A DNA stretch of 61,108 bases, filler included. It is 12 parts of 12 records of this genome, joined end to end, with 100 filler letters (N's around TTAATTAATTAA, not from the genome) between each part and the next. Parts side by side here need not be neighbours in the genome. Positions count along the whole stretch, not along the records: positions 4,962 to 16,391 come from SRR15195285_7255; 11 more parts are not named here. One strand, given 5' to 3'. This document shows positions 4,862 to 30,942 of the stretch, in pieces (position 1 is the stretch's first letter; each line of letters begins with the position of its first letter). A program made the translations under genes and the position numbers. The notes under the pieces are model-generated. The model was given only the letters and a program-made list of their open reading frames with translations. It was not told where the DNA came from and made no database searches.

Positions 4862-4961
4862 NNNNNNNNNNNNNNNNNNNNNNNNNNNNNNNNNNNNNNN
4901 NNNNNTTAATTAATTAANNNNNNNNNNNNNNNNNNNNNNNNNNNNNNNNNNNNNNNNNNNN
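4862..4961. other. Artificial contig spacer
   Basis: 44 N + TTAATTAATTAA + 44 N. Confidence 0.99.
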
Positions 4962-5327
4962 GAGGCCAGCTTTATTGAGCTCGAGGTGGATGGCGCAATA
5001 TGCTCGGCTACTCACGGCGTAGCCCAGGGGCTAGCGTGCTGCGATTCGCTCGCCGGCGGAGAGGGGGACTTATCCCATCCAGCGGGCACATCCACTAATG
5101 CCGGCGGCAGCGGCGGCTTGCACAGCATAGAGTTGACGGGCACAGTGTCGATCGGCGGATGCGATCTGACGATGCTTAGCATGAAGTGTGCTGACACTGA
5201 TCCGCAGTCGGGCTCGTTCTGCAGTTCCTTGTGCAGGCAGATGGCAATGTCGATGGCGGACGACTGCACACGAGAAGGGATCGATCTCGCTGCCGACGCT
5301 CTTGCCAGCAACCCTTGCCTTAGATAA
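4962..5327 (+). CDS. 3' fragment of a Cys-rich hypothetical protein
   Basis: Frame open from the contig edge to TAA; several Cys residues. Confidence 0.5.
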   Translation, partial: EASFIELEVDGAICSATHGVAQGLACCDSLAGGEGDLSHPAGTSTNAGGSGGLHSIELTGTVSIGGCDLTMLSMKCADTDPQSGSFCSSLCRQMAMSMADDCTREGIDLAADALASNPCLR

Positions 5328-5479
5328 CCTCACGCACGGCTGGGATCAGCGGCGGTAGTGGATGGCAGCAGTAGCACTAGTAGTATCAGTAGTAGTAAGT
5401 ATTTGAATTGACGTTTATATGTTATGACCGCTCGGAGAGCCTCGAGCTGGTTCGTTTGCCGAACGCTCCCCACGCTTTG

Positions 5480-5992
5480 TTACCGCCGAGCATTCGGATC
5501 CTCGCGAGTATCCATGGCCGTCTGGCGAATGATCGAAAGCAGCGGCGGCGTCTGCCCCATCTTGATCGGAGAGCTGGCGCGCTCGGCATGATCAACTGCT
5601 TCGTCGGAGTGCATGTCGCACAAGCTGCGGCCGCGGATGATCACTGGACGGACGGGGATGGGCATGCCGTGCTGCTGCGGCTCATCAGCTGGGATGTTTG
5701 GCACAGGGATACTTCCTTGCTGCGCGGCGCCATTCGGCGCGATTGCTGGTGCGTGTGCGGGCTGCTGGGCTGCCGCGGCATCGCCTGCAGCTGCTGCCGC
5801 GCCAGTCCTGGGCGCATCTGGGTGTTCCGCGCCGCCGCGAGACTCCGGCTCAGGCTCAGGCGCGGCAGCCCAAGCCTCAGGCTCAGGCCCAGCAGCCGTC
5901 GGGTCGCCGCTGCAGCTCGGCTCGGGTTCAGCTGTGCTAGACGCGCGGGAAGCGAACAGAAACTTCATCAGGCCCAGGTTCTTCTGCTGCAT
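5480..5992 (-). CDS. Hypothetical low-complexity Pro/Glu/Ala-rich protein; probably has an upstream exon
   Basis: 170-aa ORF with EPEPEPE repeats like those in other genes of the window; boundaries uncertain. Confidence 0.4.
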   Translation of the reverse strand: MQQKNLGLMKFLFASRASSTAEPEPSCSGDPTAAGPEPEAWAAAPEPEPESRGGAEHPDAPRTGAAAAAGDAAAAQQPAHAPAIAPNGAAQQGSIPVPNIPADEPQQHGMPIPVRPVIIRGRSLCDMHSDEAVDHAERASSPIKMGQTPPLLSIIRQTAMDTREDPNARR

Positions 5993-6813
5993 GCGCTCGC
6001 TGCCAACACCAGCGCCCGACGAGCAGCCGTCCTGCTACTGTCGCGTACCTTGCGACCTTGTCTGCTGCTGAGCTGGCAATGTCTTTCTCCGCAGCACTCC
6101 TGACACACTGCGCGCGCCGCGCAGCAGCCCTCAACACTCTCCCTCCCTGCCTCCTCCCTCACACCCTTCTCCAGCCCAGCCCAGCCAAGCCCAGGCCTTC
6201 GGGAGGCCCTTGTGGTCAACCCTTGCCTTTCAACCCTTGCCAAAATCGCTGTCTCGATTGCCGCACTGGATTCAGAATTGCCGTGCGAACGCCGGCGATG
6301 ACTCAGCAATCCCCAGTCAAAATTTGCGATATTATAGGAGCTCAGCGAACGGAGTCTCGCCGGACGCCGCGGGGGAAGATCGCCCGAAATCATGATTCTT
6401 GATTCATATGATTGTGGAGGCTGGTCAGGAGTCACCAACGCGCGCGCCGACGCCGGGCGGTGACTGATCGGGAATTCTCACTTGCGTCAACAACTTTCAA
6501 ATTGTGAAGCAGGCGGGTCGTTTGGTTGCCAACCGGCCGTCGATGGGGAGACGCGTCGAGATACCGGTACAAAAGATCGCGATCGAGTTCGGAGTTGTGG
6601 GCAATCGGTCGTGAACCAGCACGCATCAGGGTCTTGTCCCGTTGCACAGCATTCCCAGTCGAAAAATGTCTCTGTCACTTGATGGTCAGCGAGGCCCAAT
6701 AAACCAATAATGATTGTAACAAAACGACTGGGGAGGCCGACCGGGTATCAAACAATGCCTGCTGTGAAACCAGGCACAAGGCCCACCTTATGCTTGGTGC
6801 CACTACCGCGCAC

Positions 6814-6852
6814 CCGGGCATACTATGGTGGGTGTCCGGGCATACTATGGTG
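6814..6852. repeat. 17-bp direct repeat CCGGGCATACTATGGTG x2
   Basis: Exact copies at 6814-6830 and 6836-6852. Confidence 0.85.
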
Positions 6853-7163
6853 TCCGAATACTAGTAGGGTAGGGGTAGTCTACGAGCCACTGGTGAACAC
6901 AGTACACAGAGATCGACTACGCACCCACGTGCGTTATTCCGCCGATTCTCTGAGAAAGACTCTTGGTGTCGCTTTGCCTGACCGAGGGCGTCCCATACTT
7001 GTCCATGGAGCCCGAGCCAGAGCCACAGCGCATACAAACAACGAAAGGACGAGACTCTTCCGAATTTGATGCATTGGAGGCGTACTATGCCTATTTCTAA
7101 AATAATGGTACCCAGGTAGTGACGTGGCCATATGGAGTACTGAAATTTCATGGGTGCGCTGAA

Positions 7164-10100
7164 CTATGCCTCAGCTTGCGGCTCTGCTTGCACGTCTGCT
7201 TCCGGTTGGTCTGGTTCTGCCTCGGTCATGGGCATTGCGTCGGCAGCGGCAGCTGCATTCTTGTCCTCTTTTGCTTTCTTCTTGGCCTCCCGTTCACGAC
7301 GTTGCTCGGATTTCTTGTCTGCTTTTGCCTTCTTTTTTTCTTCCTTCTTCCGTTCCTTCTCTTCCTTCTTCCGTTCCTTCTCTTTGCGTGCCCTCTCCTT
7401 CCGTGCAGTCTTGGGATCCGTCGACTCCAATTGATCCTCTGCTGGTGCTTCGTCCGCAGGTGGCACGAGACCGTCGGCTGGTGCTTCGTCGGCTAGTGCT
7501 TGGTCCGCAGGTGGCACGAGACCTTCGTCCACAGGTGGCACGAGACTTTCGTCAGTAATCTCAGGCTCGGGCTGGGGCTTGGGGTCACCATCAGCCTCGG
7601 CCTCGGCCTCAGGCTCTGCGCCCTTGTTTCTGTTGAACAGGGACCGGAAGGAGGGCCGTTTCTTCACTAGCTCTTCTGGCTGATTGTCCTGATCTACGTC
7701 ATCCTTCTCTTCTGTTTGCTCCTTCTTACTGCGGCGGCGCCAACGTGACTTGCCCTCTACGGCAGACGTCTTACCCTCATCACTCTGTGGGCCCTTGTCC
7801 TTAAAAAATTGCTTACGCGCGGCCTCTCGCTGCTCAGTTGTCTTCCTTCTCGATTTGTCCATTTGCTTCTTCTGCCTGCTGGTGAACTCCATCACACTCA
7901 ACACTTCAATTTCGTAGTGATCTCCAGCCAGGTCAAGTGACTCCGCCACGCCCAGTTCAACCGACCTGCAAGGCTTTTCGCCGAGGCCATTCACCCTCTG
8001 CCATTCGATCACATCTCCAGGCAGCACCAGCGTGAGCGTCCAGCTGTCACCAGCAGCCGGTGCGTACTCTTCAGATGCGCTGATTGCGTCTTCTTTGCCC
8101 AAAGGACGCATGTACCCTTGGGCGTCCTCAGCCTCAGCCTCAGCACCGTATTCTTCCTCGTGTACTGCTTTAGCGTCTCGCAGTTGCTCCGCAGCCTCCT
8201 TCTCTGCGCTCACGGCCTTCTCCAGTCGCTGCTGGAGATCGTCGTTGACAGTGCCAGCGGGTTGTGTGTCGAGCAAGGCCTGGGCTTCTGCACGCTCTGC
8301 TACCAATGCAGCAAGCTCGGTCTCAGCACTATGCCATGCTGCAGCACGATCGAGTCTCTGTCTTGCCGCCTCTTGCCTTTGCATCAGGTCGTCAAGCCGA
8401 GCCAGGTGGTCTGTGTCTGCCCCAACATCTTCCTCCACATCATTTTCCTCCGCCGCCTGCGCCGCCGTGTACTGGTCCACAATGGCTTGGTGAGCCGCTT
8501 CTGCCAGGGCCACCGCAGCAGCGGCAGATGTTGATGGTTCAGCTGCTTGCTGCGCTGGTGCATCCGCTCCAGTCGGTGTGTTGCTTGCCAATGGTTCACC
8601 AGAGCTTCCATCATCAAGGCAGTAGTCTGGCGCTAGCTGTATCTTTGTTGCAGTCAAAGGAAGGTAATTATCACCCATGGACTCGTCACGATTGATGTGC
8701 GCTGCGATCGTCTCGAGAAGCGCGATTTCATCGTTGTCGTTCGGCTCGAGTTTCGGATGCTCCACACGCTGTTCCTTGAAGCTATACAGCAGTCCGCTGC
8801 CCGCAGCACCTGCTCCTCCACGCACCTGCACCTTCAGTACGACCTTGCTTTTCGGGTAATCGCTGGGTTTCTTGTGTTTCTTCACTGGTTCCCACTCCAG
8901 TGCATTCTCAAAGGCTTCCATCTCTTTTTCATTCAGTTCGTCGTCCATTCCTAGATCCGTCATAGATTTTCGTGTAAGCCTCTTCACCTCCTCGATGGTC
9001 AGTGGCTTGATGAAATCCTGGAGGACATCGGCGGTAGAGCTCAAATTGTTCTCCTGAAGCCAATTTGCTAGCGAAACATCCAAGCCACCACTGCTATCGT
9101 CGTCACCATCATCGCTATCGTCGTCATCAACGACGCCGTCTCCCTCAGCGTTTTGGAGCTCGTCAGCTGCCTCAGCCTCTGCGATCATGTCCTGCAGCTT
9201 CTCGACCCACATGTCACGCACCGACTCGGCATCAGTTTGTGTCAAACGCCGACCGTCGCTAGTCTCCAACGGCACCATGATCTGCACATCACCCTTCTGC
9301 TCCGTGTGAATAGTGAAAGACCTGGCCTGATACTGTTCGAGCAAGTCGATCTTCTCTGCTATCACATCAAGCAGCTGCCGACGCATCCGCTCTTCCTCGT
9401 TGATATCAGCCTGCGTCGGCGTGGCAGCATCCAGTTTGAGCTTCTGCAACGTCGTAAGGTCTTCGTCATCGGCTGGTCTTTCCGGGCCAAATGGCTTCGT
9501 TTCAATCTCGTCAATTAGACCACGCATGTGCTCAATCTCGTCTGCCCACCTTGTTACGTCTTCGCGGCAGCCCATGACTCTGGCTCGAGTGAAAAAAGTT
9601 CCACGACGCACCGCCCACCTGAGCTCGAGTGGGCGCTCCGTCATCCAGAAAGCTCGCTCCTCCGCCGGTTGCTGCCGCACCGCCACGGTCCAACAACACT
9701 GGCGGCGCGGTGGAGTCTTGTCCCAACCGGGTACCAGCTTCATCTTGCGTCCTTTCAGCAACGCCGCAAAACTACCAGCTTCCTCATCCGAATCATCATC
9801 GAAACCAGACACAGAGATGTCGTCTGGTGCCAACCCAGCCTCGTTCGCATCGTCTTCTTCGGGCGGAGGGATGTAGTTCGCAAGAATCCATCTTGCGCAG
9901 AAGTAGCGATTGTCAACACACCCGAGTACAAAGTTGGTGAAGCTCTGGCAACAGTTGTTGCAGCAATCATTGGCATTGTCAACGCGCTCTGCCACGTTGG
10001 GGTTCTGAGCTCGGTAGTTTTTCCATTCCTTCTCTTTCGCCTTCACTGCTCGAAGGACTACGACGGGTGCTGTTCGCGGATCAGCAATGATGGTATCCAA

Positions 10101-13100
10101 GCCACGGACGCAGCCGCCACAGATAGAATTCCACTTGACGTACATTCCCATTCCAAGTCCTATGGTCCATGAAGGCATCATCATCAAGAACAGTCCGCCC
10201 CAAATGCCCGTCGGACCACAGGTGTAGTATAATGGGGGTCCTCCAGAAGTGCAAGCCACGCCCCACGTAAAAAATGGAACTGCTAGCTGCGTGACACAGA
10301 ACATCAACATTTGCTTGTCAGTGTCTTGTTTCTTCTCATCGTCGTAGTCTTCATAAGGCCGGAATGTACGCTCAGTTACAGTGGTCCCGACCAAACCTAT
10401 CAAAGTTGTAGCAATTCCAATATACAGCAAAACCCAGCCAGTTTCTACGCAGTCTTCCACTCCCACTAGCGTGTTGTTTGCACACGCTGCACCTACTGAT
10501 CCCAGAACGATGCCAGAGGCCAAGCAGAACAGCCCAACAATGAACGATGGCTTTTTGATTGTCCTCCTCGCAAACTGCCGCCATCTGTCCTTATCCGCAG
10601 TTCCTAGACTGGAAAACCACCCAAGTGCCATCAAGATCAAGCCCAAAAACCAGAGTGGCGCGAAAGTTGACATGAGCACGATGGCGAAGGACAGCGGACA
10701 TTCATTGCGCTCCGTCGGATGCATCCATTTGCCAGCTGCAATTTGTTCGCATTCCTTTTTGTCCCACACCTCTTTTTCGGCCTCGGAAATGTATTTCCGT
10801 GGGACTGTATGGTCATTTACGCACGTTGCGTTCGGGCCTTCCCCAACCACCAAGCAGAACTGATGCGACCTGCAATTCTCCGCCAAGTTGTCGTAGAATG
10901 TTGGATTTAAAACAGTTCCGTTGACAGTAACCACAGACCGGCTTCCGAAGGTCTGCTGCGTGATTCGAGGCCAAACCTTGACTGTCGCCTTGACACCTAC
11001 TACATTGTCGTCAAAGCAGGCGAAGGAGAGACTGCACATCGTAGTGCACAGGACGAGCAAGAACGTTCCCCAGAACCAAGAGCTGTTCTTCCACAGCCGG
11101 GGCCAGAAGGTTGCCAACAGGGCTTGATCAGCTTTGTAATCAACCCCTGTCGATCTAAACTGGGCATAGATCATTCCAAACGAAAATAGCATTAGACTGC
11201 CACCCATCAAGACCAGCAGCACGCCGTTGTGAGGCAAAATGTAGCCACGATCCAAGCCTGTCCGCTGTCCTGCCAGCGTGCCAACCAGACCGGCCCATCC
11301 CACAGCCAGCAACACTGACCCCACAACAATCAGACCCAATGAGGATATTGCATTCCCAGCCTTGGTATTGTCTCCGGCGCCGAAGGTTCGTTTCAGTCGT
11401 CGTCCGTAGAGGCGAGTGTTGTTCTGTGTCTTCTCGTCGGCATACACTTTCCACCAGGCAGTCACTACATTGATGAGTAAGCCAAGTGGACCAAGCACCG
11501 CGCCGACTATAATCATGACCTTGCCTGCTTTCTGACAGTTGGGCAACACCACACCAGCATCTTCATCTATCCTAGTCGGTGTTGTGACACAGAAACCTCC
11601 AGATATCAGCAGCGCAATACCTGGGACGAGCAGCATCAGGCCTACAACTGTCAACGGAGTTTTCTTCCCAACTTTCGGGCCAACGATTGCCTTCAGGAAC
11701 ATGAAGGCCTTGTCCCATGATGGTCTATCGGCAGGGGTCACAGTGTTCCAGTACATGAACGAGAGAACCATGCACACTAGTCCCGTAGCGAAAGTCGGAA
11801 CACCAAAAACCAACGTGATATTAGCTTTCCTGCGGTCGCAGTCTTCGATTTTACCGAGGTTGTTCTTCGCGCACGCCCAGCCGACCGAAGTTAGCACAAC
11901 ACCAATCACAAAAAACACCTCTCCCGCAACCCACAGGGGCTTCTTTGCGACATTTTTCAAGCCGCTCGAAGCGGAGCTCATGAGTTTATCGTGGTTAATC
12001 ATACAAGCTGACAATAAACCACAAAGCAACACTGACGGTCCGACAATCACCAGAACAAACCCAGCAGCTCTGCAGTCATCTTTACCGACCAACGTATCGT
12101 TGAGGCACGCCGCACCAAAAGAGAACACCACAATTCCAGCAATATCGATAAAGAGAGCGAGCATACGGCCCTTTGTTGGGCCGTCTTCGGTTGTAAACAA
12201 ATGCCACAAGGGTCCCATTGCCTTCCTAATCGCCATTGATGATCGCAATTTGTCCGCATCCGCAAGTTTTGAGTAGTAACTCGCACCTGCGGTCACCAGC
12301 AGACCTAGCAGAATGACGCAACTCCCAAAGGTTGTGAAGAAGATACCAGCAGGCCTGCACTCGGTGGTACCTCCTATCGAACCATCCAAACAAGCTATCC
12401 CGCCACTCAGCGTGATTACACCAGTCACAACAATTCCAATGCCAAAGCACACAAAACCATCTTGAAATACCTTTAGCACCTTGCGTTCGCCTCCTTCGTC
12501 TGTGTCTGCATACTCGATAGCGTATTTCCACAGACGAAGCAGTATGCCAAGGCAGAAGACATCGACAGAAACCATTGTGAACCACACGCCAACGGTTTCA
12601 CACGTGTCACCACTGATACATATCAGCCCGAACAGAAATGCCATTAGCGCCAAAACAGTCAGACTGTTGCCAAGTATGCAGACGGCATCGAATCGGCAAA
12701 ACCATCTTTCGAGAAACCCTTGCAGTGATCGTAGCGCTTCCCCAACGTTGAAGTCCTCTCCCAACTTCATGCGCAAGATCATCGTTCCAAGAATGAGCAC
12801 ACCGTTGCCCATTAACGCAAAGGCCATTTTCATGAGCAACCATCCAGTGTTGCGAGGACCCCCTGGCGGGCCGTAGCACGGTGTACCAGGAGAACAGTCG
12901 ACGCCAACTAGATTGTCATCCATGAGAGCTGCAGCAACCGAACCAATAACAATCGCCGAAACAATAAAAGTCAATGCAGTGTACGTGGGGTGCAGTCTCT
13001 TCAGGTTTTCCCACGCTTTATCAGGATAATCGGGTTTCCAATCCGACAGGACCCTCCACTCCAGTTTCATGAACACCATGTAATAACCAAGCCCGATAAG

Positions 13101-16100
13101 CCAGACACCCCAAGGAACGAGCCTGTGTCCGGCGAGCCAGCAGTCCCCCGCGCCGATCTCATTGCCTTCCATACATGCCCAACCAAATGCAAGTACCACG
13201 ATTCCACCCACTAACAACAACGCCCCGATGACGAAAACAGGGTGTGCACCCTCCTTTCTGACGGTTCTCATGGCACGAGTGTACCGTTCATGAAACATGC
13301 TTCCAATCACCAAGACTGCACTCGCAATGTAACACTGTATACCAGACCAAAAGTAGTTGTCGTTCAAAATAACGAGTGCTGTGATGAATAGCACGGTTCC
13401 GACCAAAAACAGCACTATACTGTACCGTATCGTTGCCAGGTTCAGATTGTCGTGCGGCATTGTTGCTCTGTCTTCCTTTGTAATCTCACTTTTATCGTAC
13501 ACGAAGCATGCGATTACAGAGCCCAACAAAGCCTGCATCACCCCGAGGATGAGCAACAACGACCCTGGAACTGCCGTCTTCTGGTCTTCAACGTCTTGCC
13601 AAGAGCCTGCAGTTTCAATTAAACTTTCATCGTCAGACTGCGCAGCTGCAGGAGCGAATGCTCCAAATAAAACCTGGACGGCACCAGCCAACATCAAAAC
13701 TGCTCCAAGCTGAAATCTCCAGTCTCGTTTCGATTCTCTCAGTTTAGTCACTGCCACGTCTATTTCCAGCCTGGCTGCCACCGTGAGGGCCAATGCAGCG
13801 CCCCAGCCCATCACCATCCATCCGGAACCGAAAGTGATGTCTGCCCTGTATTTGCTACCAGTAACTACTGATCCAGTGATTACCATCGCTATGCCAACAA
13901 CAAACATCGTTGCCCCAACAGGCACTGGCGGCAGCTTGGCACGTTGGATGAACCTGTTTGCGTCAGCATCTTCGCTGCCTGCAAGCTGTTGCCAGAAGAA
14001 AGAGCACAGCAGCAAATATATCCCAGCGAGCAGGCCGAACATGGACGCATTAACAACCAGGGCAGATGTGGCCGAAATGCCGACAACAGCTCCAACTGCA
14101 CCTCCTAAGAACAGCACGCCCCCAGCGAAGAATGACGTCTTCTTTTTCGCAGTCAGCATTGCAGACTTGTTCCGCGATTTCTGCTTAACAGGAAGTAGTT
14201 CCATACCAGCCGTAACAAGGCCGATCGCGAGGACTACAGCACCAGCGAACATCATCGACGCAGAGGTGGCTTTGGTACTACCTACCTTAATGCTCAGGAA
14301 CATCAACACGATGCCAAGGACACACATCCCAACGCCATAGCCGAAACCATCGCGCACCCACCCAGCCTGCTGAAGCTCCTGTAGTTTTTCGATTGCGCCA
14401 GCCGTATTTGCCACTAACAGCAGCAACCCTACCCCAAGACCAGTAGTGCCCGGCAAAATCATGGTAATGAAGTTACCGATAATGCCGGGCACCAACAGGC
14501 CCACACCGACAATCACCAGAAAAACACCAAACAACATTGGGGGCTGCTTCCTGATCTGAGCAGCGTTCATAGCCTGAATCTTGTTCCAGTACAGTATCAT
14601 GAGTCCCGGACCAGTGCCCAAGAACATTGCTGAGATGGCGAAGGCTGTCATCAGCTTTCCCGAGTCACCGCAGGAGATGCCATCATCTATCTGGTCGCCT
14701 TCAGTAGTTGTAGGCACGGGGGATGTGGACGTGTTCACAGTGGACGTGTTCACATCATTAGTGGCTGCATGTAGTTGGTGGAGTTCCGAAAATTCTGGGA
14801 CTTCGCACGGCACTGCGGACCACGACACACCAGCAACTGCCAGGACAACACCTGCCAGAACTGTAGCCACACATGTCCGGAAAAAAAGCATCTCCAGTGG
14901 CTTGGATTTTCCCTGACTTGCAAGCTGCAGAAGTGTCTTCAAAAACTTTCGCGCGAAGACTGAGAGTGCCAGGAGCAGACCAGCCATCGCAGTGGTGATG
15001 GAGCTTCCTATCAATGCGATGGAGCTGTACATTCCATTCTCCGCACATTCGTCGTTTTTGACGCACACTATCCCCACGAACAAAAACAGTGTCGAGGTAC
15101 TGAATATTGTCAGCCCAATCAACGTCGGCGACTTAGTGAGTTTCGCACGAAGCCCTGTCGCATCCAGCCTGGCAGCATCGAAGTACTCGTAGCAAAAGCC
15201 TAAGAAACCTGTAGACGCAACCATGACGCCTCCTGTGGTCACCATCGTCCCGAAAGCTTGGTTCGTGATGCCAAGCACGAGCACGACCCCGAGAACCGTG
15301 GTGGACGTCCCTATGACAAAGATGAAGATCCACGCTTTCCATCTGGACGTGGCTCGCAGCTCTCCCATCCGCAGCATAAAGCTTTGCATGTCACGTTGGA
15401 ACCGCGTCACAAACAGAAAGCCCACGCCGCTCGCGAGGCACGCAACACCACTCGTGCTCAAGATGGGACCTGTAGACGTTCTGCACTGCCCCGCTTCGAT
15501 CTTGATCGAGGCTTGCAAGCAGGACACACCAATTGGAAGAAAAATCGTCCCCGTGACAATGAGCCCCAAACCCACAAATGACGACCATCTCAACATGAAC
15601 TGCAGCGCCGTGGTCTGTTCCGCCGCTCCCCTGTCCTTGATCTCGTCCCACCTGAGTGCCAGATAGCTGAACCAGTAGCCTCCCATCAAAAGCCCTATCC
15701 CAACACAGGTGATGGTGACTCCTGTTGGCGTGCATGGATCGGAATCGACCGTGTTCACATCTGGGTCGGCAACGTCATCCATCACGTTTGTGGCTGCCTC
15801 GGTAAGGTTGATGTTTCCCGGAGAGTGTGTGGGTGGCACAGGCGCGGGCTTCAGGCATGAGCCTGAGTCACCGACTGCAGCCAGCACTATCCCAGCGATC
15901 GTCGATGCCGAGCCCAGACTGAACATCACTCTTCGGTAGAGCGGTGCGCCTCTCAACGCTAAAAGCTTCGCCCCGAGACCAAGCCCCCACGCATTCACAT
16001 TTACCGCGAAGCCATCGAGCCCTTTTCCGCAAATGGGTATCGTCACCTCGATGCTGGTGCAAAGGATTACCAGCCCCGCCACTGCACAGAGGCCTGCAAT

Positions 16101-16391
16101 AATTGCTTCTCCGACCTGTCCACTTTCACCCACTACGAAAATCTCCACGAACAAAGTCACTGCCACTGCGATAAGAAGGAACGCGCATGGGCGCTGCCAG
16201 TTTTCGCGCATCTGCTGTGAAGATTGCAGATACGCGGTCATACAAACGAAGGCTCCCACGCAAAGGAACACCGCCAGTGTGACCACTACGACAGAGGCCT
16301 CCGCGCAGTCCGGCTCAGCAAGGGCACCGAAGCCGCACGAAACGCCTAGTGCAGCAGTGATGGTCGCCACGGCAACTAATCCAACTGCCGC
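7164..16391 (-). CDS. Giant polytopic membrane protein (>3070 aa): about 24 TM hairpins, PH-like and SAM-like domains, coiled coil, K/E-rich tail; 5'-truncated
   Basis: 9.2-kb stop-free ORF still open at the contig edge (AAVGLVAVATIT...). Regular pairs of hydrophobic segments separated by K/R-rich linkers. Confidence 0.9.
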   Translation of the reverse strand, partial: AAVGLVAVATITAALGVSCGFGALAEPDCAEASVVVVTLAVFLCVGAFVCMTAYLQSSQQMRENWQRPCAFLLIAVAVTLFVEIFVVGESGQVGEAIIAGLCAVAGLVILCTSIEVTIPICGKGLDGFAVNVNAWGLGLGAKLLALRGAPLYRRVMFSLGSASTIAGIVLAAVGDSGSCLKPAPVPPTHSPGNINLTEAATNVMDDVADPDVNTVDSDPCTPTGVTITCVGIGLLMGGYWFSYLALRWDEIKDRGAAEQTTALQFMLRWSSFVGLGLIVTGTIFLPIGVSCLQASIKIEAGQCRTSTGPILSTSGVACLASGVGFLFVTRFQRDMQSFMLRMGELRATSRWKAWIFIFVIGTSTTVLGVVLVLGITNQAFGTMVTTGGVMVASTGFLGFCYEYFDAARLDATGLRAKLTKSPTLIGLTIFSTSTLFLFVGIVCVKNDECAENGMYSSIALIGSSITTAMAGLLLALSVFARKFLKTLLQLASQGKSKPLEMLFFRTCVATVLAGVVLAVAGVSWSAVPCEVPEFSELHQLHAATNDVNTSTVNTSTSPVPTTTEGDQIDDGISCGDSGKLMTAFAISAMFLGTGPGLMILYWNKIQAMNAAQIRKQPPMLFGVFLVIVGVGLLVPGIIGNFITMILPGTTGLGVGLLLLVANTAGAIEKLQELQQAGWVRDGFGYGVGMCVLGIVLMFLSIKVGSTKATSASMMFAGAVVLAIGLVTAGMELLPVKQKSRNKSAMLTAKKKTSFFAGGVLFLGGAVGAVVGISATSALVVNASMFGLLAGIYLLLCSFFWQQLAGSEDADANRFIQRAKLPPVPVGATMFVVGIAMVITGSVVTGSKYRADITFGSGWMVMGWGAALALTVAARLEIDVAVTKLRESKRDWRFQLGAVLMLAGAVQVLFGAFAPAAAQSDDESLIETAGSWQDVEDQKTAVPGSLLLILGVMQALLGSVIACFVYDKSEITKEDRATMPHDNLNLATIRYSIVLFLVGTVLFITALVILNDNYFWSGIQCYIASAVLVIGSMFHERYTRAMRTVRKEGAHPVFVIGALLLVGGIVVLAFGWACMEGNEIGAGDCWLAGHRLVPWGVWLIGLGYYMVFMKLEWRVLSDWKPDYPDKAWENLKRLHPTYTALTFIVSAIVIGSVAAALMDDNLVGVDCSPGTPCYGPPGGPRNTGWLLMKMAFALMGNGVLILGTMILRMKLGEDFNVGEALRSLQGFLERWFCRFDAVCILGNSLTVLALMAFLFGLICISGDTCETVGVWFTMVSVDVFCLGILLRLWKYAIEYADTDEGGERKVLKVFQDGFVCFGIGIVVTGVITLSGGIACLDGSIGGTTECRPAGIFFTTFGSCVILLGLLVTAGASYYSKLADADKLRSSMAIRKAMGPLWHLFTTEDGPTKGRMLALFIDIAGIVVFSFGAACLNDTLVGKDDCRAAGFVLVIVGPSVLLCGLLSACMINHDKLMSSASSGLKNVAKKPLWVAGEVFFVIGVVLTSVGWACAKNNLGKIEDCDRRKANITLVFGVPTFATGLVCMVLSFMYWNTVTPADRPSWDKAFMFLKAIVGPKVGKKTPLTVVGLMLLVPGIALLISGGFCVTTPTRIDEDAGVVLPNCQKAGKVMIIVGAVLGPLGLLINVVTAWWKVYADEKTQNNTRLYGRRLKRTFGAGDNTKAGNAISSLGLIVVGSVLLAVGWAGLVGTLAGQRTGLDRGYILPHNGVLLVLMGGSLMLFSFGMIYAQFRSTGVDYKADQALLATFWPRLWKNSSWFWGTFLLVLCTTMCSLSFACFDDNVVGVKATVKVWPRITQQTFGSRSVVTVNGTVLNPTFYDNLAENCRSHQFCLVVGEGPNATCVNDHTVPRKYISEAEKEVWDKKECEQIAAGKWMHPTERNECPLSFAIVLMSTFAPLWFLGLILMALGWFSSLGTADKDRWRQFARRTIKKPSFIVGLFCLASGIVLGSVGAACANNTLVGVEDCVETGWVLLYIGIATTLIGLVGTTVTERTFRPYEDYDDEKKQDTDKQMLMFCVTQLAVPFFTWGVACTSGGPPLYYTCGPTGIWGGLFLMMMPSWTIGLGMGMYVKWNSICGGCVRGLDTIIADPRTAPVVVLRAVKAKEKEWKNYRAQNPNVAERVDNANDCCNNCCQSFTNFVLGCVDNRYFCARWILANYIPPPEEDDANEAGLAPDDISVSGFDDDSDEEAGSFAALLKGRKMKLVPGWDKTPPRRQCCWTVAVRQQPAEERAFWMTERPLELRWAVRRGTFFTRARVMGCREDVTRWADEIEHMRGLIDEIETKPFGPERPADDEDLTTLQKLKLDAATPTQADINEEERMRRQLLDVIAEKIDLLEQYQARSFTIHTEQKGDVQIMVPLETSDGRRLTQTDAESVRDMWVEKLQDMIAEAEAADELQNAEGDGVVDDDDSDDGDDDSSGGLDVSLANWLQENNLSSTADVLQDFIKPLTIEEVKRLTRKSMTDLGMDDELNEKEMEAFENALEWEPVKKHKKPSDYPKSKVVLKVQVRGGAGAAGSGLLYSFKEQRVEHPKLEPNDNDEIALLETIAAHINRDESMGDNYLPLTATKIQLAPDYCLDDGSSGEPLASNTPTGADAPAQQAAEPSTSAAAAVALAEAAHQAIVDQYTAAQAAEENDVEEDVGADTDHLARLDDLMQRQEAARQRLDRAAAWHSAETELAALVAERAEAQALLDTQPAGTVNDDLQQRLEKAVSAEKEAAEQLRDAKAVHEEEYGAEAEAEDAQGYMRPLGKEDAISASEEYAPAAGDSWTLTLVLPGDVIEWQRVNGLGEKPCRSVELGVAESLDLAGDHYEIEVLSVMEFTSRQKKQMDKSRRKTTEQREAARKQFFKDKGPQSDEGKTSAVEGKSRWRRRSKKEQTEEKDDVDQDNQPEELVKKRPSFRSLFNRNKGAEPEAEAEADGDPKPQPEPEITDESLVPPVDEGLVPPADQALADEAPADGLVPPADEAPAEDQLESTDPKTARKERARKEKERKKEEKERKKEEKKKAKADKKSEQRREREAKKKAKEDKNAAAAADAMPMTEAEPDQPEADVQAEPQAEA
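7440..7555 (-). repeat. Coding tandem repeat (DExLVPPxD / DEAPA units)
   Basis: Repeated CAGGTGGCACGAGAC and GCTGGTGCTTCGTC motifs. Confidence 0.8.
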
Positions 16392-16491
16392 NNNNNNNNN
16401 NNNNNNNNNNNNNNNNNNNNNNNNNNNNNNNNNNNTTAATTAATTAANNNNNNNNNNNNNNNNNNNNNNNNNNNNNNNNNNNNNNNNNNNN
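16392..16491. other. Artificial contig spacer
   Basis: 44 N + TTAATTAATTAA + 44 N. Confidence 0.99.
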
Positions 16492-19567: not shown

Positions 19568-19667
19568 NNNNNNNNNNNNNNNNNNNNNNNNNNNNNNNNN
19601 NNNNNNNNNNNTTAATTAATTAANNNNNNNNNNNNNNNNNNNNNNNNNNNNNNNNNNNNNNNNNNNN
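19568..19667. other. Artificial contig spacer
   Basis: 44 N + TTAATTAATTAA + 44 N. Confidence 0.99.
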
Positions 19668-19850: not shown

Positions 19851-22800
19851 TCATACATGTACTTCACTAAACACATGTACTTTGTCGAGGCAATTCTCAT
19901 CCTCTTCACTCGCAGCAGCAACAATCTGCTCGACCGCTGGTGGTATCCGAGGAAACGCTTCATGAAGGAAACCGATACAGCCCTAGAGGCAATCTCTTAA
20001 TTGTGTGGTGATAGGCATTGCTACCGCCCAGATCACACACAGCCGAATAAAATGAAGACAGCCCCACGTACGGCCAGAGAGCCACGTGGAGGGCGTCGAG
20101 GCGATGGCTGAGAAGTCTTCGCGACCACCGGAGACGTGGTCCCTACAGGTGTGAGCGTGTTCGCGTCCAGCTGCTTCACGGACACCTTACCCGTCGGTCT
20201 ACCTGTCGTTCCGTGGGTTTCTCTTTTCATCTTCGCTCCTGCCTGCTGGTCGTTAAACGCAATGAGTAGTTCGTCGTCATAGGTTGATTCTTGAGGAGTC
20301 GGAGGAGGTGTCGCGCTCGCCATCCCGACTGGCGTGAGCGTCGTAGTATCCACCTGCTTCACCGACACTTTTCTCTTTCGGTAGAGTGTCTCGGTCTTGC
20401 GTTCGGCCCAGTTATCGTCGAATGCAACATTTTTGTCCAGCGACACGTCCGGAAAGTCGTCCTGGCCGAATGAGACTGCAGCTGCGCGCTTCTCAGCATT
20501 TTCCCAGGCGTCACCTTTACCACCCTGCATCCGCTCCTCCACCTGCTGAAGGGCCTTTTGCTGTCGCACTTGAGTGCGCATCCTCTCCTTCCGTTGCGTA
20601 TATGCCGCCATGCTGCGTGGGCCACAAAAAAGGGCTAAGGCAACGAGGATGATTAAGGAAAATATTATCGTAAGGATTAGAGCCCATGGAGGCGGAGGAG
20701 GTGGGACAATTTCGATCTCGCATGCATCACCCGTCCATCCAGAAGCACATTCGCAGTGATAGGAATCGAAGCCATCAATGCAGACAGAGTTGCTATGCTG
20801 GCACACGACGCCAGCACAGTCATCGACGCTCGAAGTACAGTATTTGCCGGTCCAGGCAGCAGTGCAGACGCATGTGTATGTATCGTCCCCGTCAACACAG
20901 GTCGCTCCGTTGCGGCAAGTATGACCTACGCAGTCATCGACGTTGATTGCAACCGCAAACTGTGTCAGATGACAGATCTGGACATGCAGAAGCTTTGCCA
21001 CCTTGTCACGCTCTGTCCACGGTGCAGGCTCATCTGCACCTGGTGGGGGACAAGTGTTTTCGGCACGAATCCAGCTCTCCGAGTAGACATCGTACAGCAG
21101 TAGCTCTGGAAAGACCTCCGCCTCTGCGGGCTGCTCTGTGAGCGACAATAATGAACCAGGATCGTATGCCAGGGATATTATGGCAGGCTTAGCAAACACA
21201 TAGCCATCTACCTTCGACCCATTCTCGTCTTTCACTCCAATCTCGAAGGTGTAGCCACCATACGAAAATCCAGATGGGGCTTTGTCAGCTGGATCTTCTG
21301 CGTCTGGGTCGTCGTCCACCCGCCCAGCAACAAGACTTACACCGTCATCGATTGCACCAGCTGGTGCAGCAAACGATCCAACCAGAGGTTGCTCGGCAGA
21401 TGCTTGCGGACCCGAAGAATTGCCGTCCGTGCTTACCGGGCCCGAGTCAAACATCATGCCCGTTGGTTTCGTGGAATCAACCTGGACTTCAGCGGTACCC
21501 ACTTTGATTCCATTCGAGACGATGCTTGAAGATACAGCGCCAGACTCCGTCAAGGCTCTGGTTTCTAGCATGTAGATTTCCTTGACTTCAAGATCAAGGC
21601 CTCCCTTCCCGAACAGGGTCCTGTCGAACGCCCACGTCCAATTGGTAAGGACCACTCCAGATTCTTGGTGACGCACCCTGAATTCATAAAACGGCTTGGT
21701 CTGGTTGTCGATGGCTTTCCAGTTGCCGAGGATAAGGTTAGTGTACTCTTGATTGTTCACATCCCCAGTAAGTCCTTCGTTGCATTCCACCATCGTGGGG
21801 GGGCTCTTATCGACAACAAAGCCATCTGTGCTGATGTTGGACACAAGGCCTGCGCCATTGCGAACAAGCAACGTAGCATAGTAATCAATGCGCTCGTGCT
21901 CAATCCAGCACCCTTGCACACCAGGTGCACAGGTGGTCCCATCATCACAGCTACCGAACACTTGAGGATATAGTGGTGCGCAAGCTGGGTGCTGCGGCAC
22001 ATGCTGCGAGGCACACTCTTCTTTGCTCGTCACGTTCGGCAAGACGACCCCACTCGAATCGACGCAAGTCTTGAACATGCTGACGTTCAGACTCGCCTGT
22101 GCCTCAGCCGCAGTGGCATTGACAGGGATATCAAAGAAGCTGATCACGTCGGTCAAGCCAGGCTGAGTGCCCCAACCAATCTGTAGGGACTCAATCCCAC
22201 TTTCTGTGTCCGAAAAGCCCGTCCATGCCGCACGAACTAGACTTCTCGACCACTGCGCATCCATGTCCATGTCAACAGGGGCGAACATATTCAGTTCGGC
22301 CAGTCCATCGATGAAGTAACCTCCAGAGTCGTACCACTCGTCGGTGATGGGTGGAGTCCTATCATAGGTGGAACCACCCGACAGCGTCTCGTTAGCAAGG
22401 CCGGACTCAGCGTGTGCCGACACCTCGAGGACCACCTCTGTGCCGTTGGAAATCACGCCCGCCTCACCACCAACTTCCACGAGCAGAGTGTCGTTGTTCG
22501 CAATGCACCAGCGACCCACACACGATGTACACTGGTCAGATAGGCCACCTGGAGAGACGTGCCCAAGGGGGCACGCCCGGCACTCGAATGGTGGCAGGCC
22601 TTGATGTAGAACGGGCGTGCGGTGGTGGCCTCGGGCACAAAACGCAGTTGTGTAGACCCTCTTTTCACCGCTGCTGTCCTCCGCGACAAAGAGGATGCGC
22701 TCGTCCTGCATTTGACTCGTCACTATCGTGTCCGTCCTGGTGGTTGTCACCTGGCCCAACAGACCTGGCCTATCCGGTCCATCGATATGGTAAATCAAAA

Positions 22801-25367: not shown

Positions 25368-25467
25368 NNNNNNNNNNNNNNNNNNNNNNNNNNNNNNNNN
25401 NNNNNNNNNNNTTAATTAATTAANNNNNNNNNNNNNNNNNNNNNNNNNNNNNNNNNNNNNNNNNNNN
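25368..25467. other. Artificial contig spacer
   Basis: 44 N + TTAATTAATTAA + 44 N. Confidence 0.99.
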
Positions 25468-25556
25468 TGTGTCTCTGTGTCTCTGTGTCTGTCTGTCTCT
25501 GTGTGTGGCTGTCTGTCTCTGTGCCTATGTGGCTGTGCGTCTCTGCCTATGTGTGC
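25468..25556. repeat. Degenerate CT/GT microsatellite, probably intronic
   Basis: (CTCTGTGT)-like run before the CAG acceptor at 25585. Confidence 0.75.
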
Positions 25557-25585
25557 ATGAATCTCAGCTTCCTTTGTCTGTGCAG

Positions 25586-30842: not shown

Positions 30843-30942
30843 NNNNNNNNNNNNNNNNNNNNNNNNNNNNNNNNNNNNNNNNNNNNTTAATTAATTAANN
30901 NNNNNNNNNNNNNNNNNNNNNNNNNNNNNNNNNNNNNNNNNN
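30843..30942. other. Artificial contig spacer
   Basis: 44 N + TTAATTAATTAA + 44 N. Confidence 0.99.

What the first reader, a model, noticed from the sequence alone, without database searches (positions are those of the whole stretch)
10135..16391. Giant membrane protein built from about 24 tandem, Cys-paired TM hairpins (about 48 TMs, still truncated)
Seen: about 2,080 residues form a repeating unit of TM, loop, TM and K/R-rich linker; I count 24 units by eye. About 15 loops carry a Cys pair, often in a shared pattern: GAACLNDTLVGKDDCRAAG, GAACANNTLVGVEDCVETG, GIACLDGSIGGTTECRPAG, GWACMEGNEIGAGDCWLAG, GWACAKNNLGKIEDC, GLICISGDTCETVG. Several loops have N-x-S/T sequons. The ORF is open at the contig edge, so the array may be longer. 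Known: Piezo subunits have 38 TMs, and the positive-inside rule puts these Cys loops outside. Inference: a membrane-embedded repeat solenoid or blade that I cannot assign to any family, possibly a mechanosensor, membrane scaffold or multivalent receptor.
Basis: partly seen in the sequence, partly recalled or inferred. Interest (0 to 1): 0.88.

Follow-up and report, generated by a model that had tools for sequence, protein, structure and literature searches.

The report
Giant 50-helix membrane hairpin-repeat protein
A marine single-celled eukaryote encodes a 3,163-residue membrane protein made of about 25 back-to-back two-helix hairpins zipped by regularly spaced glycines and clasped by cysteine pairs, the first-described member of an unnamed protein family whose function is still unknown.

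Summary
Window 7164-16391 (minus strand) is one uninterrupted reading frame cut by a contig joint. An identical 3,163-aa database protein supplies the missing 88 N-terminal residues. Hydropathy gives 50 membrane segments (48 of them in the window), that is 25 hairpins. Linkers are K/R-rich and 15 of 25 hairpin loops hold two or more Cys. The repeat is real: self-alignment scores reach 130 against 46 for a reversed control, and G-x6-G occurs 69 times against 27 expected. A 76-position profile of 11 window hairpins found 47 proteins among 1.84 billion. These include giants of 3,223, 2,568 and 1,533 aa with 12-24 matched stretches, none with a Pfam family for the hairpin. The family signature is G-x6-G-x6-G-x-A-C-x10-C-x3-G-x6-G-x6-G. 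In relatives, C2 and EF-hand domains sit in the linkers and an EGF domain sits in a hairpin loop, which places the Cys loops outside. I found no match in Pfam, PDB sequences, PDB folds or the ESM Atlas, and no paper. Function is inferred only. The most likely role is a rigid membrane platform that anchors a conserved cytosolic domain; a Piezo-like channel is not excluded.

The parts
7164..16391 (-). Coding sequence held in the window: residues 89-3163 of the 3,163-aa protein, plus the stop codon at 7164-7166. The 5' end is cut by the contig joint.
   Evidence: (tblastn, 100% over 3,075 aa in one piece)
16392..16491 (.). Artificial contig joint (N44-TTAATTAATTAA-N44) that truncates the gene.
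10143..16391 (-). Array of TM hairpins, TM3-TM50 (protein residues 89-2171): 24 of the 25 hairpins.
10359..10583 (-). Canonical hairpin 24 (TM47-48, residues 2025-2099), loop GAACANNTLVGVEDC.
   Evidence: 59.4 bits with a profile built from other proteins only
11163..12491 (-). Run of five consecutive canonical hairpins 18-22 (TM35-44, residues 1389-1831).
   Evidence: In the AF2 model of residues 1470-1840, 8 of 8 hydropathy peaks are long helices.
13047..13274 (-). Canonical hairpin 15 (TM29-30, residues 1128-1203), loop GWACMEGNEIGAGDC.
13482..13754 (-). Hairpin 13 (TM25-26, residues 968-1058). It keeps the glycine spacing but has no Cys pair.
14577..15947 (-). Hairpins 4, 5 and 8 (residues 237-339, 346-423 and 579-693), recruited by the iterated profile. 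Hairpins 4 and 8 carry outer loops of 53 and 61 aa. Hairpins 6 and 7 lie between them and were not recruited.
10683..11012 (-). Largest outer loop: 110 aa between TM45 and TM46 (residues 1882-1991), with 5 Cys and N-x-T sequons.
10143..10307 (-). Last hairpin, TM49-50 (residues 2117-2171). Its loop GVACTSGGPPLYYTCGPTG fits G-x2-C-x10-C-x3-G. It lies in the best-conserved part of the protein.
8976..10142 (-). Conserved cytosolic domain (residues 2172-2560), 80.5% identical to P0003. No known family.
9897..10121 (-). Juxtamembrane Cys cluster (residues 2179-2253) with 8 Cys invariant in 5 of 5 aligned sequences, including C-x2-C and CC-x2-CC.
7167..8975 (-). Acidic, coiled-coil-like and K/E-rich low-complexity tail (residues 2561-3163), 55% identical to P0003.
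4962..7163 (.). 2.2 kb downstream of the stop codon to the other contig end. It has no convincing reading frame and is either a 3' UTR or intergenic.

Best explanation
What it is (shown). This is a real gene of a marine planktonic eukaryote. It encodes a 3,163-aa polytopic membrane protein. The first 2,170 residues form 25 consecutive two-helix hairpins, or 50 membrane helices. A conserved 390-aa cytosolic domain and a 600-aa charged tail follow. The N-terminus, all inter-hairpin linkers and the C-terminal third face the cytosol. The hairpin loops face the outside or the lumen of the secretory pathway.

The unit (shown as sequence; the structure is inferred). Each helix carries glycines seven residues apart, G-x6-G-x6-G. 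This is the 'small-x6-small' pattern known to drive tight antiparallel packing of membrane helices. The 10-residue turn between the two helices is bracketed by two cysteines that most likely form a disulfide. Each hairpin would then be a thin, rigid, stapled slab.

How it works (inferred). Strung together by short basic linkers, the 25 slabs form a very large, stiff platform or ribbon within the membrane. Very little is exposed on the outer face. The platform's job would be to hold cytosolic modules at, and spread them along, a membrane. In this protein the modules are a Cys-rich conserved domain and a long charged tail that probably ties to cortical or cytoskeletal partners. In paralogues they are Ca2+-binding C2 and EF-hand modules. 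In short, it is a membrane scaffold or anchor rather than an enzyme, transporter or ligand receptor.
For: Real gene. The frame is stop-free over 3,075 codons. An ortholog 59% identical over its full length exists (P0003). 6 of 8 variant positions seen in RNA-library contigs are synonymous third-position changes. Contigs at least 99% alike occur in RNA libraries of 4 studies, with no splice joints. 14 of 19 listed marine or seawater runs hold at least half of the sampled words.

Architecture. Hydropathy gives 48-50 peaks. In the modelled segment, 8 of 8 peaks are long helices.

Topology. K+R is 113 in linkers against 37 in loops. C2 and EF-hand domains of P0008 lie in inter-hairpin linkers, and an EGF domain of P0032 lies inside a hairpin loop.

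Repeat and family. See the self-alignment against its reversed control. The window-only profile found 47 proteins at E<=1e-3 in 1.84 billion, 24 of them at E<=1e-10. 133 hairpins in 46 other proteins share G24 0.87, G31 0.94, C34 0.91, C45 0.88, G49 0.83 and G56 0.87, with 0 reversed controls at or above 13 bits. Profiles built only from P0008-P0010 recognise 11 of 25 window hairpins above the top reversed score. Gly and Cys are the best-kept residues between orthologs, at 83% and 84% against a mean of about 59%.

Glycine spacing. G-x6-G is enriched 2.6-fold, while G-x3-G is not enriched. The profile weakly hits a de novo 'Gx6G' design in the PDB (8srn, E 0.025). The abstract and significance statement of bioRxiv 10.1101/2025.06.25.661420 (read) state that small-x6-small patterns reliably drive antiparallel TM pairs.

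Scaffold reading. Cytosolic modules differ among family members while the hairpin is constant. Outer loops are mostly 8-30 aa.
Against: No experiment or localisation exists. Transcription is not proven: the tool warns that RNA libraries can hold DNA, and the same run also covers part of the ORF-free 4962-6485 stretch.

Inter-hairpin packing is unknown (pTM 0.43), and I could not inspect the coordinates. The disulfide and the helix-helix glycine contact are therefore inferences.

The strongest conservation is in the last hairpin and the juxtamembrane domain, at 83-90% identity. That would also fit a catalytic or pore-like core.

Thirteen or fourteen of the 25 hairpins are not detectably homologous by profile. 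TM calls rest on a hydropathy scale only. The outer loops are acidic (D+E 73 against K+R 37), which hints at a role on the outer face that a pure scaffold does not need.
Confidence: 0.45

Rival explanations
1. A Piezo-like mechanosensitive or Ca2+-linked ion channel. The long hairpin array would be a force-collecting, membrane-bending blade. The highly conserved last hairpin (TM49-50), together with the juxtamembrane cytosolic domain, would form an oligomeric pore or gate.
For: It is very large and built of repeated TM units. The N-terminal array is less conserved (41-76% per 100 aa) than the C-terminal end of the membrane part and the domain after it (83-90%), as in a blade-plus-pore layout. 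A single large outer loop of 110 aa with 5 Cys lies near the C-terminal end of the array. Paralogues carry Ca2+-binding C2 and EF-hand modules.
Against: There are 0 Pfam families, so no Piezo domains. The unit is a 2-TM hairpin, not a 4-TM unit. No Piezo chain appears among the listed Foldseek or VIA rows, which is inconclusive because the model covers only 4 hairpins. The large loop lies between TM45 and TM46, not between the last two helices. There is no evidence of oligomerisation.
Confidence: 0.12
2. An outer-face multivalent cation-binding or adhesion surface. The 25 short acidic, disulfide-closed loops (consensus C-[LIM]-[DN]-[DGN]-T-L-x-G-V-[DE]-[DE]-C) would bind Ca2+ or a matrix, scale or mineral component. 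The protein would then pattern extracellular material or act as a low-affinity, high-avidity receptor.
For: Outer loops carry D+E 73 against K+R 37. The loop positions D36/D37 and D43/D44 are commonly acidic across 133 family hairpins. One relative has EGF modules inserted in a loop. Loops hold 9 N-x-S/T sequons against 3 in linkers.
Against: Loops are only about 10 residues between the Cys and lie close to the membrane surface. The acidic positions are only 26-39% conserved as any single residue. The best-conserved parts are the glycines, the cysteines and the cytosolic domain.
Confidence: 0.1
3. Not a real single gene: a mis-assembly, a read-through of several genes or unspliced introns, or a non-coding frame that is open by chance.
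For: The window is stitched from short contigs. No proof of transcription was obtained. The identical database protein may come from the same or a sister assembly.
Against: 3,075 stop-free codons at about 52-56% G+C. Collinear 59% identity over 3,063 aligned columns with P0003 from another source. Gly and Cys are selectively conserved. Variants are synonymous-biased, 6 of 8. Contigs from 13 studies hold the stretch. No joints were seen.
Confidence: 0.02

Closest known systems
Piezo1/Piezo2 mechanosensitive channels (38 TMs, nine 4-TM repeat units per blade; from my own knowledge, and the '38 transmembrane' wording appears in papers listed)
   Same: A giant polytopic protein whose membrane part is a tandem array of repeated helical units. 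The C-terminal end of the membrane part is the best-conserved part.
   Different: No sequence relation. The unit is a 2-TM hairpin with G-x6-G stripes and a Cys-closed loop, not a 4-TM unit. There are 50 helices rather than 38. There is no cap domain between the last two helices. No evidence for a trimer or a pore.
Small-x6-small (Gly-x6-Gly) antiparallel TM helix-pair building block (bioRxiv 10.1101/2025.06.25.661420, abstract and significance statement read; PDB 8srn design hit)
   Same: Heptad-spaced glycines on membrane helices that are neighbours in an antiparallel hairpin.
   Different: That is a packing motif scattered through many unrelated folds, not a protein family. Here it is the backbone of a repeat that recurs 20-25 times in one chain and is coupled to a Cys-x10-Cys turn.
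BK channel beta subunits (2 TMs, cytosolic ends, disulfide-bonded outer loop)
   Same: A 2-TM hairpin with a Cys-containing outer loop. The weak profile hits are E 0.0065 (beta2) and 0.025 (beta4), covering profile positions 4-51.
   Different: The hit covers only the first helix and the start of the loop, and it is at the noise edge. The BK beta loop is a domain of over 100 aa with several disulfides. BK beta is a single hairpin, not a repeat. No Pfam CaKB match.
Claudin/PMP22-type tetraspan proteins that build intramembrane strands or arrays, e.g. Euglena IP39 (PMC3644091; only the title and abstract start seen in the listing)
   Same: Small helical membrane units with a Cys pair in an outer loop that tile a membrane as a structural lattice. 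This is the closest functional analogy for the scaffold reading. One claudin-fold chain (Cav gamma, 3jbr_E) appears at Z 7.5, rmsd 5.0, 100 aligned.
   Different: Those units are separate 4-TM proteins that assemble non-covalently. Here the units are 2-TM and covalently concatenated. No W-GLW-C-C motif and no Pfam match. Z 7.5 is within the tool's stated noise for helical models.
Multi-C2 membrane-anchored proteins (MCTP, extended synaptotagmins, ferlins; from my own knowledge). Relevant to the paralogue P0008 only.
   Same: P0008 combines C2 domains and EF-hands with TM hairpins.
   Different: Those families have one or two hairpins or a single anchor. P0008 has 57-59 hydrophobic segments. 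The window protein has no C2 or EF-hand.

Membership tests
Piezo | Sequence match to the Piezo Pfam domains | tested here: not met
   hmmscan of the 3,068-aa window protein against Pfam-A found 0 families at E<=1.
Piezo | Blade built of 4-TM helical units | tested here: not met
   The repeating sequence unit is a 2-TM hairpin of 76 profile positions. In relatives the higher-order unit is an 8-TM cassette of four hairpin types.
Piezo | Fold likeness to solved Piezo chains; trimeric pore module | tested here: inconclusive
   The model covers 4 hairpins only (pTM 0.43). Foldseek found 0 matches at E<=1e-3. VIA-align's best Z was 7.8 over 79 residues. Oligomeric state was not tested.
Claudin/PMP22 tetraspan | Pfam PMP22_Claudin or Claudin_2 match and the W-GLW-C-C outer-loop signature (signature recalled) | tested here: not met
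   0 Pfam families. The loops read G-x-A-C-x10-C-x3-G.
Claudin/PMP22 tetraspan | Fold likeness | tested here: inconclusive
   3jbr_E at Z 7.5, rmsd 5.0, 100 aligned. This is within the noise range the tool states for helical models.
Tetraspanin | Pfam Tetraspanin match; large EC2 loop with a CCG motif (motif recalled) | tested here: not met
   0 Pfam families. 8esv_B at Z 7.4 aligns over only 64 residues, a single hairpin.
BK channel beta subunit (CaKB) | Sequence similarity across both TMs and the disulfide-rich loop | tested here: inconclusive
   Profile A2 against PDB sequences gave E 0.0065 and 0.025, covering profile positions 4-51 only. No Pfam match.
Small-x6-small antiparallel TM pair (a motif class, not a family) | Heptad-spaced small residues on both helices of an antiparallel pair | tested here: met
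   G-x6-G occurs 69 times against 26.8+-4.7 in 1000 shuffles, and G-x6-G-x6-G 24 times against 2.9. It is present in 34 of 50 TMs and in both helices of 14 of 25 hairpins. Family columns G17/G24/G31 and G49/G56/G63.
Small-x6-small antiparallel TM pair (a motif class, not a family) | The glycine faces actually contact each other | not testable with these tools
Only the secondary structure and pLDDT were returned.
Unnamed 'Gx6G Cys-loop TM hairpin repeat' family defined here | Match to the hairpin profile G-x6-G-x6-G-x-A-C-x10-C-x3-G-x6-G-x6-G above reversed-sequence controls | tested here: met
   11 of 25 window hairpins score above the top reversed control (16.7 bits) with profiles built only from P0008-P0010. 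12 of 25 are recruited by the iterated profile. 133 hairpins in 46 other proteins score at or above 13 bits, against 0 in reversed controls.

The most novel reading that the evidence does not exclude
This is the founding member of an undescribed superfamily of giant protist membrane proteins with about 50-59 membrane helices per chain, more than the 38 of Piezo. An array of disulfide-stapled, glycine-zipped hairpins would act as a force- or Ca2+-responsive intramembrane blade, and a conserved C-terminal hairpin plus cytosolic domain would act as a gate. That would make it a new class of mechanosensitive or Ca2+-coupled channel, or of membrane-shaping machine, in marine plankton.
Probability: 0.12. 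Interest if true: 0.92.

Novelty: categorically new. Interest (0 to 1): 0.74.

Why it matters
If the count of 50 membrane helices (57-59 hydrophobic segments in the paralogue P0008) holds, these chains exceed the 38 helices of Piezo. In my searches I found no paper describing a protein with about 46-52 TMs.

The family is a natural, highly repeated use of the Gly-x6-Gly antiparallel pair, which membrane-protein designers treat as a basic building block. It therefore offers 25 evolutionary variants of one minimal two-helix unit in a single chain. That makes it a ready-made test set for rules of helix packing, hairpin insertion and disulfide stapling.

The organism's sequence occurs in seawater data from 13 studies, so the protein belongs to a widespread plankton lineage. 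A 76-position profile is now available to chart the family. Relatives that carry C2, EF-hand and EGF modules give handles for working out what the platform does.

Tried and rejected
1. blastp of the protein against itself returned only the identity hit, so I used hhalign and HMMs instead.

2. A jackhmmer run seeded with a P0008 cassette became unspecific. The reversed sequences were in its database and scored up to 101 bits. I used it only to locate the full-length cassettes of P0008-P0010, not as evidence for the window protein.

3. I tested for a four-type (A-B-C-D) 8-TM cassette in the window protein. The window hairpins do not cycle through the four types; most resemble type D. The top self-alignment offset of about 350 aa remains the only hint of a higher-order repeat.

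4. A PH-like domain in the cytosolic part was my own impression from the sequence. Pfam at E<=10 on six cytosolic pieces and fragments gave only sub-threshold noise. The AF2 model of residues 2172-2640 had pLDDT 44.4 and was unusable. The idea is unsupported and dropped.

5. The ESM Atlas gave no usable hit for the TM part or the cytosolic part.

6. PDB sequence searches with the cytosolic domain gave 0 hits at E<=1. The best hit with profile A3 was E 0.78, to coiled-coil-like proteins.

7. The search for related loci: the viral contigs call was not run because the alignment was judged too variable. Two scans of metagenome contigs found pattern matches (198 and 593) but no relative. No DNA of orthologs was obtained, so there is no dN/dS and no gene neighbourhood.

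8. The search for homologous proteins with profile A2 and 'longer' lengths found only 1 protein, P0053. No source names were gained.

10. No whole genome is held. No paralogue lies in the other 11 contigs, and there are no Rfam matches.

11. The large mixed alignments A4 and A5 misplaced repeats and were not used for folding. A6 was checked and used.

12. The search of earlier findings had nothing on this genome, on its sequence or on a like family.

13. RNA-run cover: bins without cover, and the small shares of runs X16, X18 and X19, are not evidence of anything.

15. Supplementary files of papers were not consulted.
Full report
1. WHAT IS AT THE COORDINATES

The window is not one piece of DNA. 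Eleven N44-TTAATTAATTAA-N44 joints divide it into 12 contigs. The finding lies on the contig at 4962-16391.

On the minus strand a single frame runs from the stop at 7164-7166 up to the contig edge at 16391. The tool's 'GTG start' at 16370 is an artefact of the cut.

A database search returned two proteins at E<=1e-3 among 7,976 scored candidates. P0002 is 100% identical and 3,163 aa long; its record name is that of a 12,459-letter assembly node. P0003 is 59% identical and 3,233 aa long, from another source.

By tblastn, P0002 residues 89-3163 match window 16391-7167 in one piece at 100%.

The other contigs encode plainly eukaryotic proteins: OTU1-UBXL/UBA, EGF, and a cyclic-nucleotide-binding ion channel. 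No whole genome is held.

2. IS IT A REAL GENE?

- The frame is stop-free over 3,075 codons at 50-56% G+C.
- Identity with P0003 is collinear over 3,063 columns.
- Conservation is selective. Gly is 83% and Cys 84% identical in the membrane part, against about 59% overall.
- Nineteen public runs from 13 studies of marine or seawater samples hold the stretch, 14 of them with at least half of the sampled words. Six of the 19 are RNA libraries.
- Contigs of four RNA libraries from four studies lie on the gene at 99% identity or more. One run (X8) covers 26 of 30 bins. No splice joint was seen.
- Of the 8 single-letter differences listed, 6 are synonymous third-position changes and 2 are conservative (I to V, S to G).

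Caveats. The tool warns that DNA can sit in RNA libraries, and X8 also covers part of the ORF-free stretch 4962-6485. Transcription is therefore likely but not proven. P0002 may stem from a sister assembly and is not independent evidence.

3. THE MEMBRANE PART

Kyte-Doolittle hydropathy (17-residue window) on the full protein gives 50 peaks at thresholds of 1.2-1.3 within residues 25-2171, 48 at 1.4-1.5, 44 at 1.6 and 41 at 1.8. Only one weak peak (1.29) falls in the last 990 residues. P0003 gives 50, 47 and 39 at thresholds 1.3, 1.5 and 1.8.

Loops alternate strictly.
- The 25 loops inside hairpins total 606 aa, with K+R 37, D+E 73 and 9 N-x-S/T sequons. 15 of the 25 hold at least two Cys.
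- The 24 linkers total 691 aa, with K+R 113, D+E 70 and 3 sequons.

The window part starts inside TM3 and so holds 48 helices, or 24 hairpins.

An AlphaFold2 model of residues 1470-1840 was built from 15 alignment rows. I checked row placement against the BLAST identities. Mean pLDDT is 68.7 and pTM is 0.43. It shows eight helices of 24-39 residues that coincide with all 8 hydropathy peaks TM37-44, joined by turns of 10-16 residues. The low pTM means the arrangement of hairpins relative to one another is not known. I had no TM predictor beyond hydropathy.

4. IS THE REPEAT MORE THAN HYDROPHOBIC PERIODICITY?

(a) A profile-profile self-comparison (P0002 plus P0003, residues 1-2200) gives off-diagonal scores of 130, 114, 105, 98, 94, 89, 84, 68 and 66 (these include mirror pairs). 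The best score against the reversed alignment is 45.6. That control keeps both the composition and the TM/loop rhythm.

(b) An HMM seeded with five obvious units was iterated, admitting only hits more than 2 bits above the best reversed-sequence hit. It recruits 12 of 25 hairpins in P0002 and 11 in P0003.

(c) Profiles built only from three other proteins (P0008-P0010) score 11 of the 25 window hairpins above the highest reversed-control score of 16.7 bits.

(d) Motif counts against 1000 shuffles of residues 1-2200:
- G-x6-G: 69 against 26.8+-4.7 (0 of 1000 reach it).
- G-x6-G-x6-G: 24 against 2.9+-1.8 (0 of 1000).
- G-x3-G: 25 against 26.7 (not enriched).
- C-x10-C: 7 against 1.9 (2 of 1000).
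- G-x2-C-x10-C-x3-G: 5 against 0.0.

G-x6-G is present in 34 of 50 helices. It is in both helices of 14 hairpins, in one helix of 6, and in neither helix of 5.

So the array is a true sequence repeat for about half of the units. Most of the rest share the glycine spacing. Five hairpins (2, 3, 7, 14, 17) have no G-x6-G in either helix and are hairpins by hydropathy alone in that count. Hairpin 7 does score 14.2 bits with the type C profile, above that profile's own reversed maximum of 10.3.

5. THE FAMILY

A 76-position profile was made from 11 window hairpins only (alignment A2). Searched against 1.84 billion representative proteins, it found 47 at E<=1e-3, 24 at E<=1e-10 and 6 at E<=1e-30.

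Besides the ortholog P0003, the hits include three large proteins:
- P0008: 3,223 aa, 24 matched stretches.
- P0009: 2,568 aa, 20 matched stretches.
- P0010: 1,533 aa, 12 matched stretches.

The other hits are mostly fragments of 100-590 aa. One weak hit (P0047, E 6.7e-4) looks unrelated, and I left it out of later counts.

At 12 bits or more, the window-derived profile marks 19, 12 and 10 hairpins in P0008, P0009 and P0010. In their reversed sequences it marks 0, 0 and 1.

Aligning the 133 hairpins of at least 13 bits from 46 proteins other than the window's (0 in the reversed controls) gives these column frequencies: G17 0.60, G24 0.87, G31 0.94, A33 0.72, C34 0.91, L39 0.65, G41 0.62, C45 0.88, G49 0.83, G56 0.87, G63 0.68. 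In words, there are three heptad-spaced glycines on each helix and a Cys-x10-Cys turn.

Pfam finds nothing on the hairpins of P0009, P0010, P0013 and P0038, nor on the window protein.

In P0008-P0010 the hairpins come in 8-TM cassettes of four distinguishable types, separated by long hydrophilic linkers. The window protein and P0003 instead form an almost uninterrupted array and do not cycle through the four types. P0008 has 57-59 hydrophobic segments.

6. TOPOLOGY FROM INDEPENDENT EVIDENCE

Every hairpin has two helices, so all linkers lie on one side of the membrane and all hairpin loops on the other. In P0008, an EF-hand pair (633-693) and two C2 domains (from 2441) lie in linkers between complete hairpins. 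In P0032, an EGF domain (149-169) lies between the first-Cys half and the second-Cys half of one hairpin.

From general knowledge, C2 and EF-hand are cytosolic module types and EGF is a disulfide-bonded extracellular module. This agrees with the positive-inside count. The Cys pairs are therefore in an oxidising compartment, and a disulfide across the turn is plausible, though it is inferred.

7. THE CYTOSOLIC PART

Identity to P0003 is highest at residues 2101-2500 (83%, 90%, 73% and 85% per 100 aa), against 41-76% in the array before residue 2100. Over residues 2172-2560 it is 80.5%.

A search restricted to shorter proteins found 4 relatives at E<=1e-3 among 8,000 scored candidates, at 55-99% identity, all fragments. 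In the 5-sequence alignment, eight Cys are invariant within 75 residues next to the membrane (C-x2-C, CC-x2-CC and two more). An acidic P-P-P-E-E-D-D stretch and several Trp/Arg-rich blocks are also invariant.

No family was found:
- Pfam gave nothing at E<=1 on the whole protein and only noise at E<=10 on pieces.
- PDB sequence searches gave 0 hits at E<=1, and a best of E 0.78 with a profile.
- The ESM Atlas gave no usable hit.
- The AF2 model was unusable, with pLDDT 44.4.

The last 600 residues are acidic, Ala/Glu-rich and finally K/E-rich low complexity.

8. COMPARISON WITH KNOWN FOLDS AND FAMILIES

Foldseek of the 4-hairpin model against 350,542 PDB chains gave 0 matches at E<=1e-3. The best was E 0.17, with TM-scores of 0.27 or less.

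VIA-align against 48,161 representative chains gave no Z of 8 or more. The top rows (Z 7.8 to 6.2) align 54-180 residues, mostly a single helical hairpin from unrelated proteins. They include one claudin-fold chain (3jbr_E: Z 7.5, rmsd 5.0, 100 aligned) and one tetraspanin (8esv_B: Z 7.4, 64 aligned). All of this is within the range the tool calls common for helical models.

The hairpin profile against PDB sequences gave borderline hits to BK channel beta2 and beta4 subunits (E 0.0065 and 0.025; first helix and loop start only). It also hit a de novo peptide named 'Gx6G' design (8srn, E 0.025).

The abstract and significance statement of bioRxiv 10.1101/2025.06.25.661420 (read) state that small-x6-small patterns encode very common antiparallel TM helix pairs, about 10% of packing architectures. 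They also state that such patterns reliably drive minimal proteins into that geometry. This is the basis for reading each hairpin as a tightly packed antiparallel pair.

Literature searches found no description of such a protein:
- 'transmembrane hairpin / tandem repeats / giant protein / protist'.
- 'Gx6G / transmembrane / antiparallel'.
- '46, 48, 50 or 52 transmembrane'.

These searches cover only the held open-access library. Supplements were not seen.

9. MECHANISM, WITH SHOWN AND INFERRED STEPS MARKED

Shown:
- a giant protein with about 50 membrane helices in 25 hairpins;
- heptad glycines and Cys-bracketed turns as the conserved signature;
- loops outside, linkers and tail inside;
- a family whose hairpin is constant while the cytosolic modules vary (a conserved Cys-rich domain plus charged tail here; C2 and EF-hand in P0008; other tails in P0009 and P0010).

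Inferred:
- each hairpin is a rigid, disulfide-stapled antiparallel pair;
- the chain of such pairs forms a large, stiff intramembrane platform with a minimal outer face;
- its role is to anchor and space cytosolic modules along a membrane, possibly tying membrane to cortex.

I put about 0.85 on the structural description. I put about 0.45 on the description and the scaffold role taken together.

The main rivals are a Piezo-like channel (0.12) and an outer-face cation- or matrix-binding surface (0.10). The channel reading is favoured by the conserved C-terminal hairpin and domain, and by Ca2+ modules in paralogues. The surface reading is favoured by the acidic loops and by the EGF insertion in a relative. 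An artefact is very unlikely (0.02).

10. NOVELTY AND VERDICT

The proteins exist in databases only as unnamed predictions. Neither the hairpin repeat nor the cytosolic domain has a Pfam family, a solved relative or a paper that I could find.

The building block, a Gly-x6-Gly antiparallel pair, is a known packing motif. A chain made of 25 such Cys-clasped hairpins is, as far as these searches reach, without precedent, and so is a family with up to 57-59 hydrophobic segments per chain. I rate it categorically new in architecture, with function open.

- the taxonomic identity of the organism and of the family members;
- DNA of orthologs, for selection tests and gene neighbourhoods;
- inter-hairpin packing.

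Noticed in passing
window 1-61108 (joints at 4862-4961, 16392-16491, 19568-19667, 25368-25467, 30843-30942, 34843-34942, 39379-39478, 43091-43190, 47490-47589, 52439-52538, 56462-56561): The window is 12 short contigs joined by N44-TTAATTAATTAA-N44 spacers. Neighbouring 'genes' across a joint are therefore not genomic neighbours.
   Followed up: yes
window 20033-25309 (-): A second very long frame (1,758 aa) on its own contig. Its only Pfam match is an EGF-like domain near residue 1460-1490; the rest is unassigned.
   Followed up: partly
window 47675-51544 (+): A 1,289-aa frame with no Pfam family, in a stretch of extreme strand composition (AT skew 0.40 and GC skew 0.20 at 48001-50000). It probably encodes a low-complexity repeat protein.
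   Followed up: no
window 25469-27853 (+) and 27969-29003 (+): A 794-aa protein with two P-loop regions (a PRK/uridine-kinase-type domain at 67-222 and a second Walker A near 560-600). It is followed on the same contig by a weak CYTH-domain frame.
   Followed up: no
window 31856-33811 (-): A 651-aa ion channel of the voltage-gated/cyclic-nucleotide-binding type (Ion_trans, Ion_trans_2, cNMP_binding).
   Followed up: no
window 892-2190 (+): A 432-aa frame with a Met-zincin domain (DUF4953, E 3.7e-18) and a piece of DUF5117. These two domains are usually seen together in bacterial proteins, so this contig may be bacterial or a transfer.
   Followed up: no
window 4962-7163: 2.2 kb between the stop codon of the giant gene and the contig end have no convincing frame, yet contigs of RNA-library runs X8 and X18 cover parts of it. 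It is either a long 3' UTR or DNA carry-over.
   Followed up: partly
P0008 (relative, 3,223 aa), residues 633-693 and 2441-2750: This paralogue carries an EF-hand pair and two C2 domains in cytosolic linkers between 8-TM cassettes. It has 57-59 hydrophobic segments.
   Followed up: partly
P0010 residues about 1290-1370 and P0022 residues about 370-445 (relatives): Both end in a similar, roughly 80-residue W/G-rich segment after the last hairpin. By eye it looks like a small SH3-like beta domain. Pfam gave nothing for P0010 at E<=0.01.
   Followed up: no
window 9897-10121 (-), protein residues 2179-2253: Eight invariant cysteines (C-x2-C, CC-x2-CC, and two more) lie just after the last membrane helix. 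They could be a zinc site or a palmitoylation cluster.
   Followed up: no
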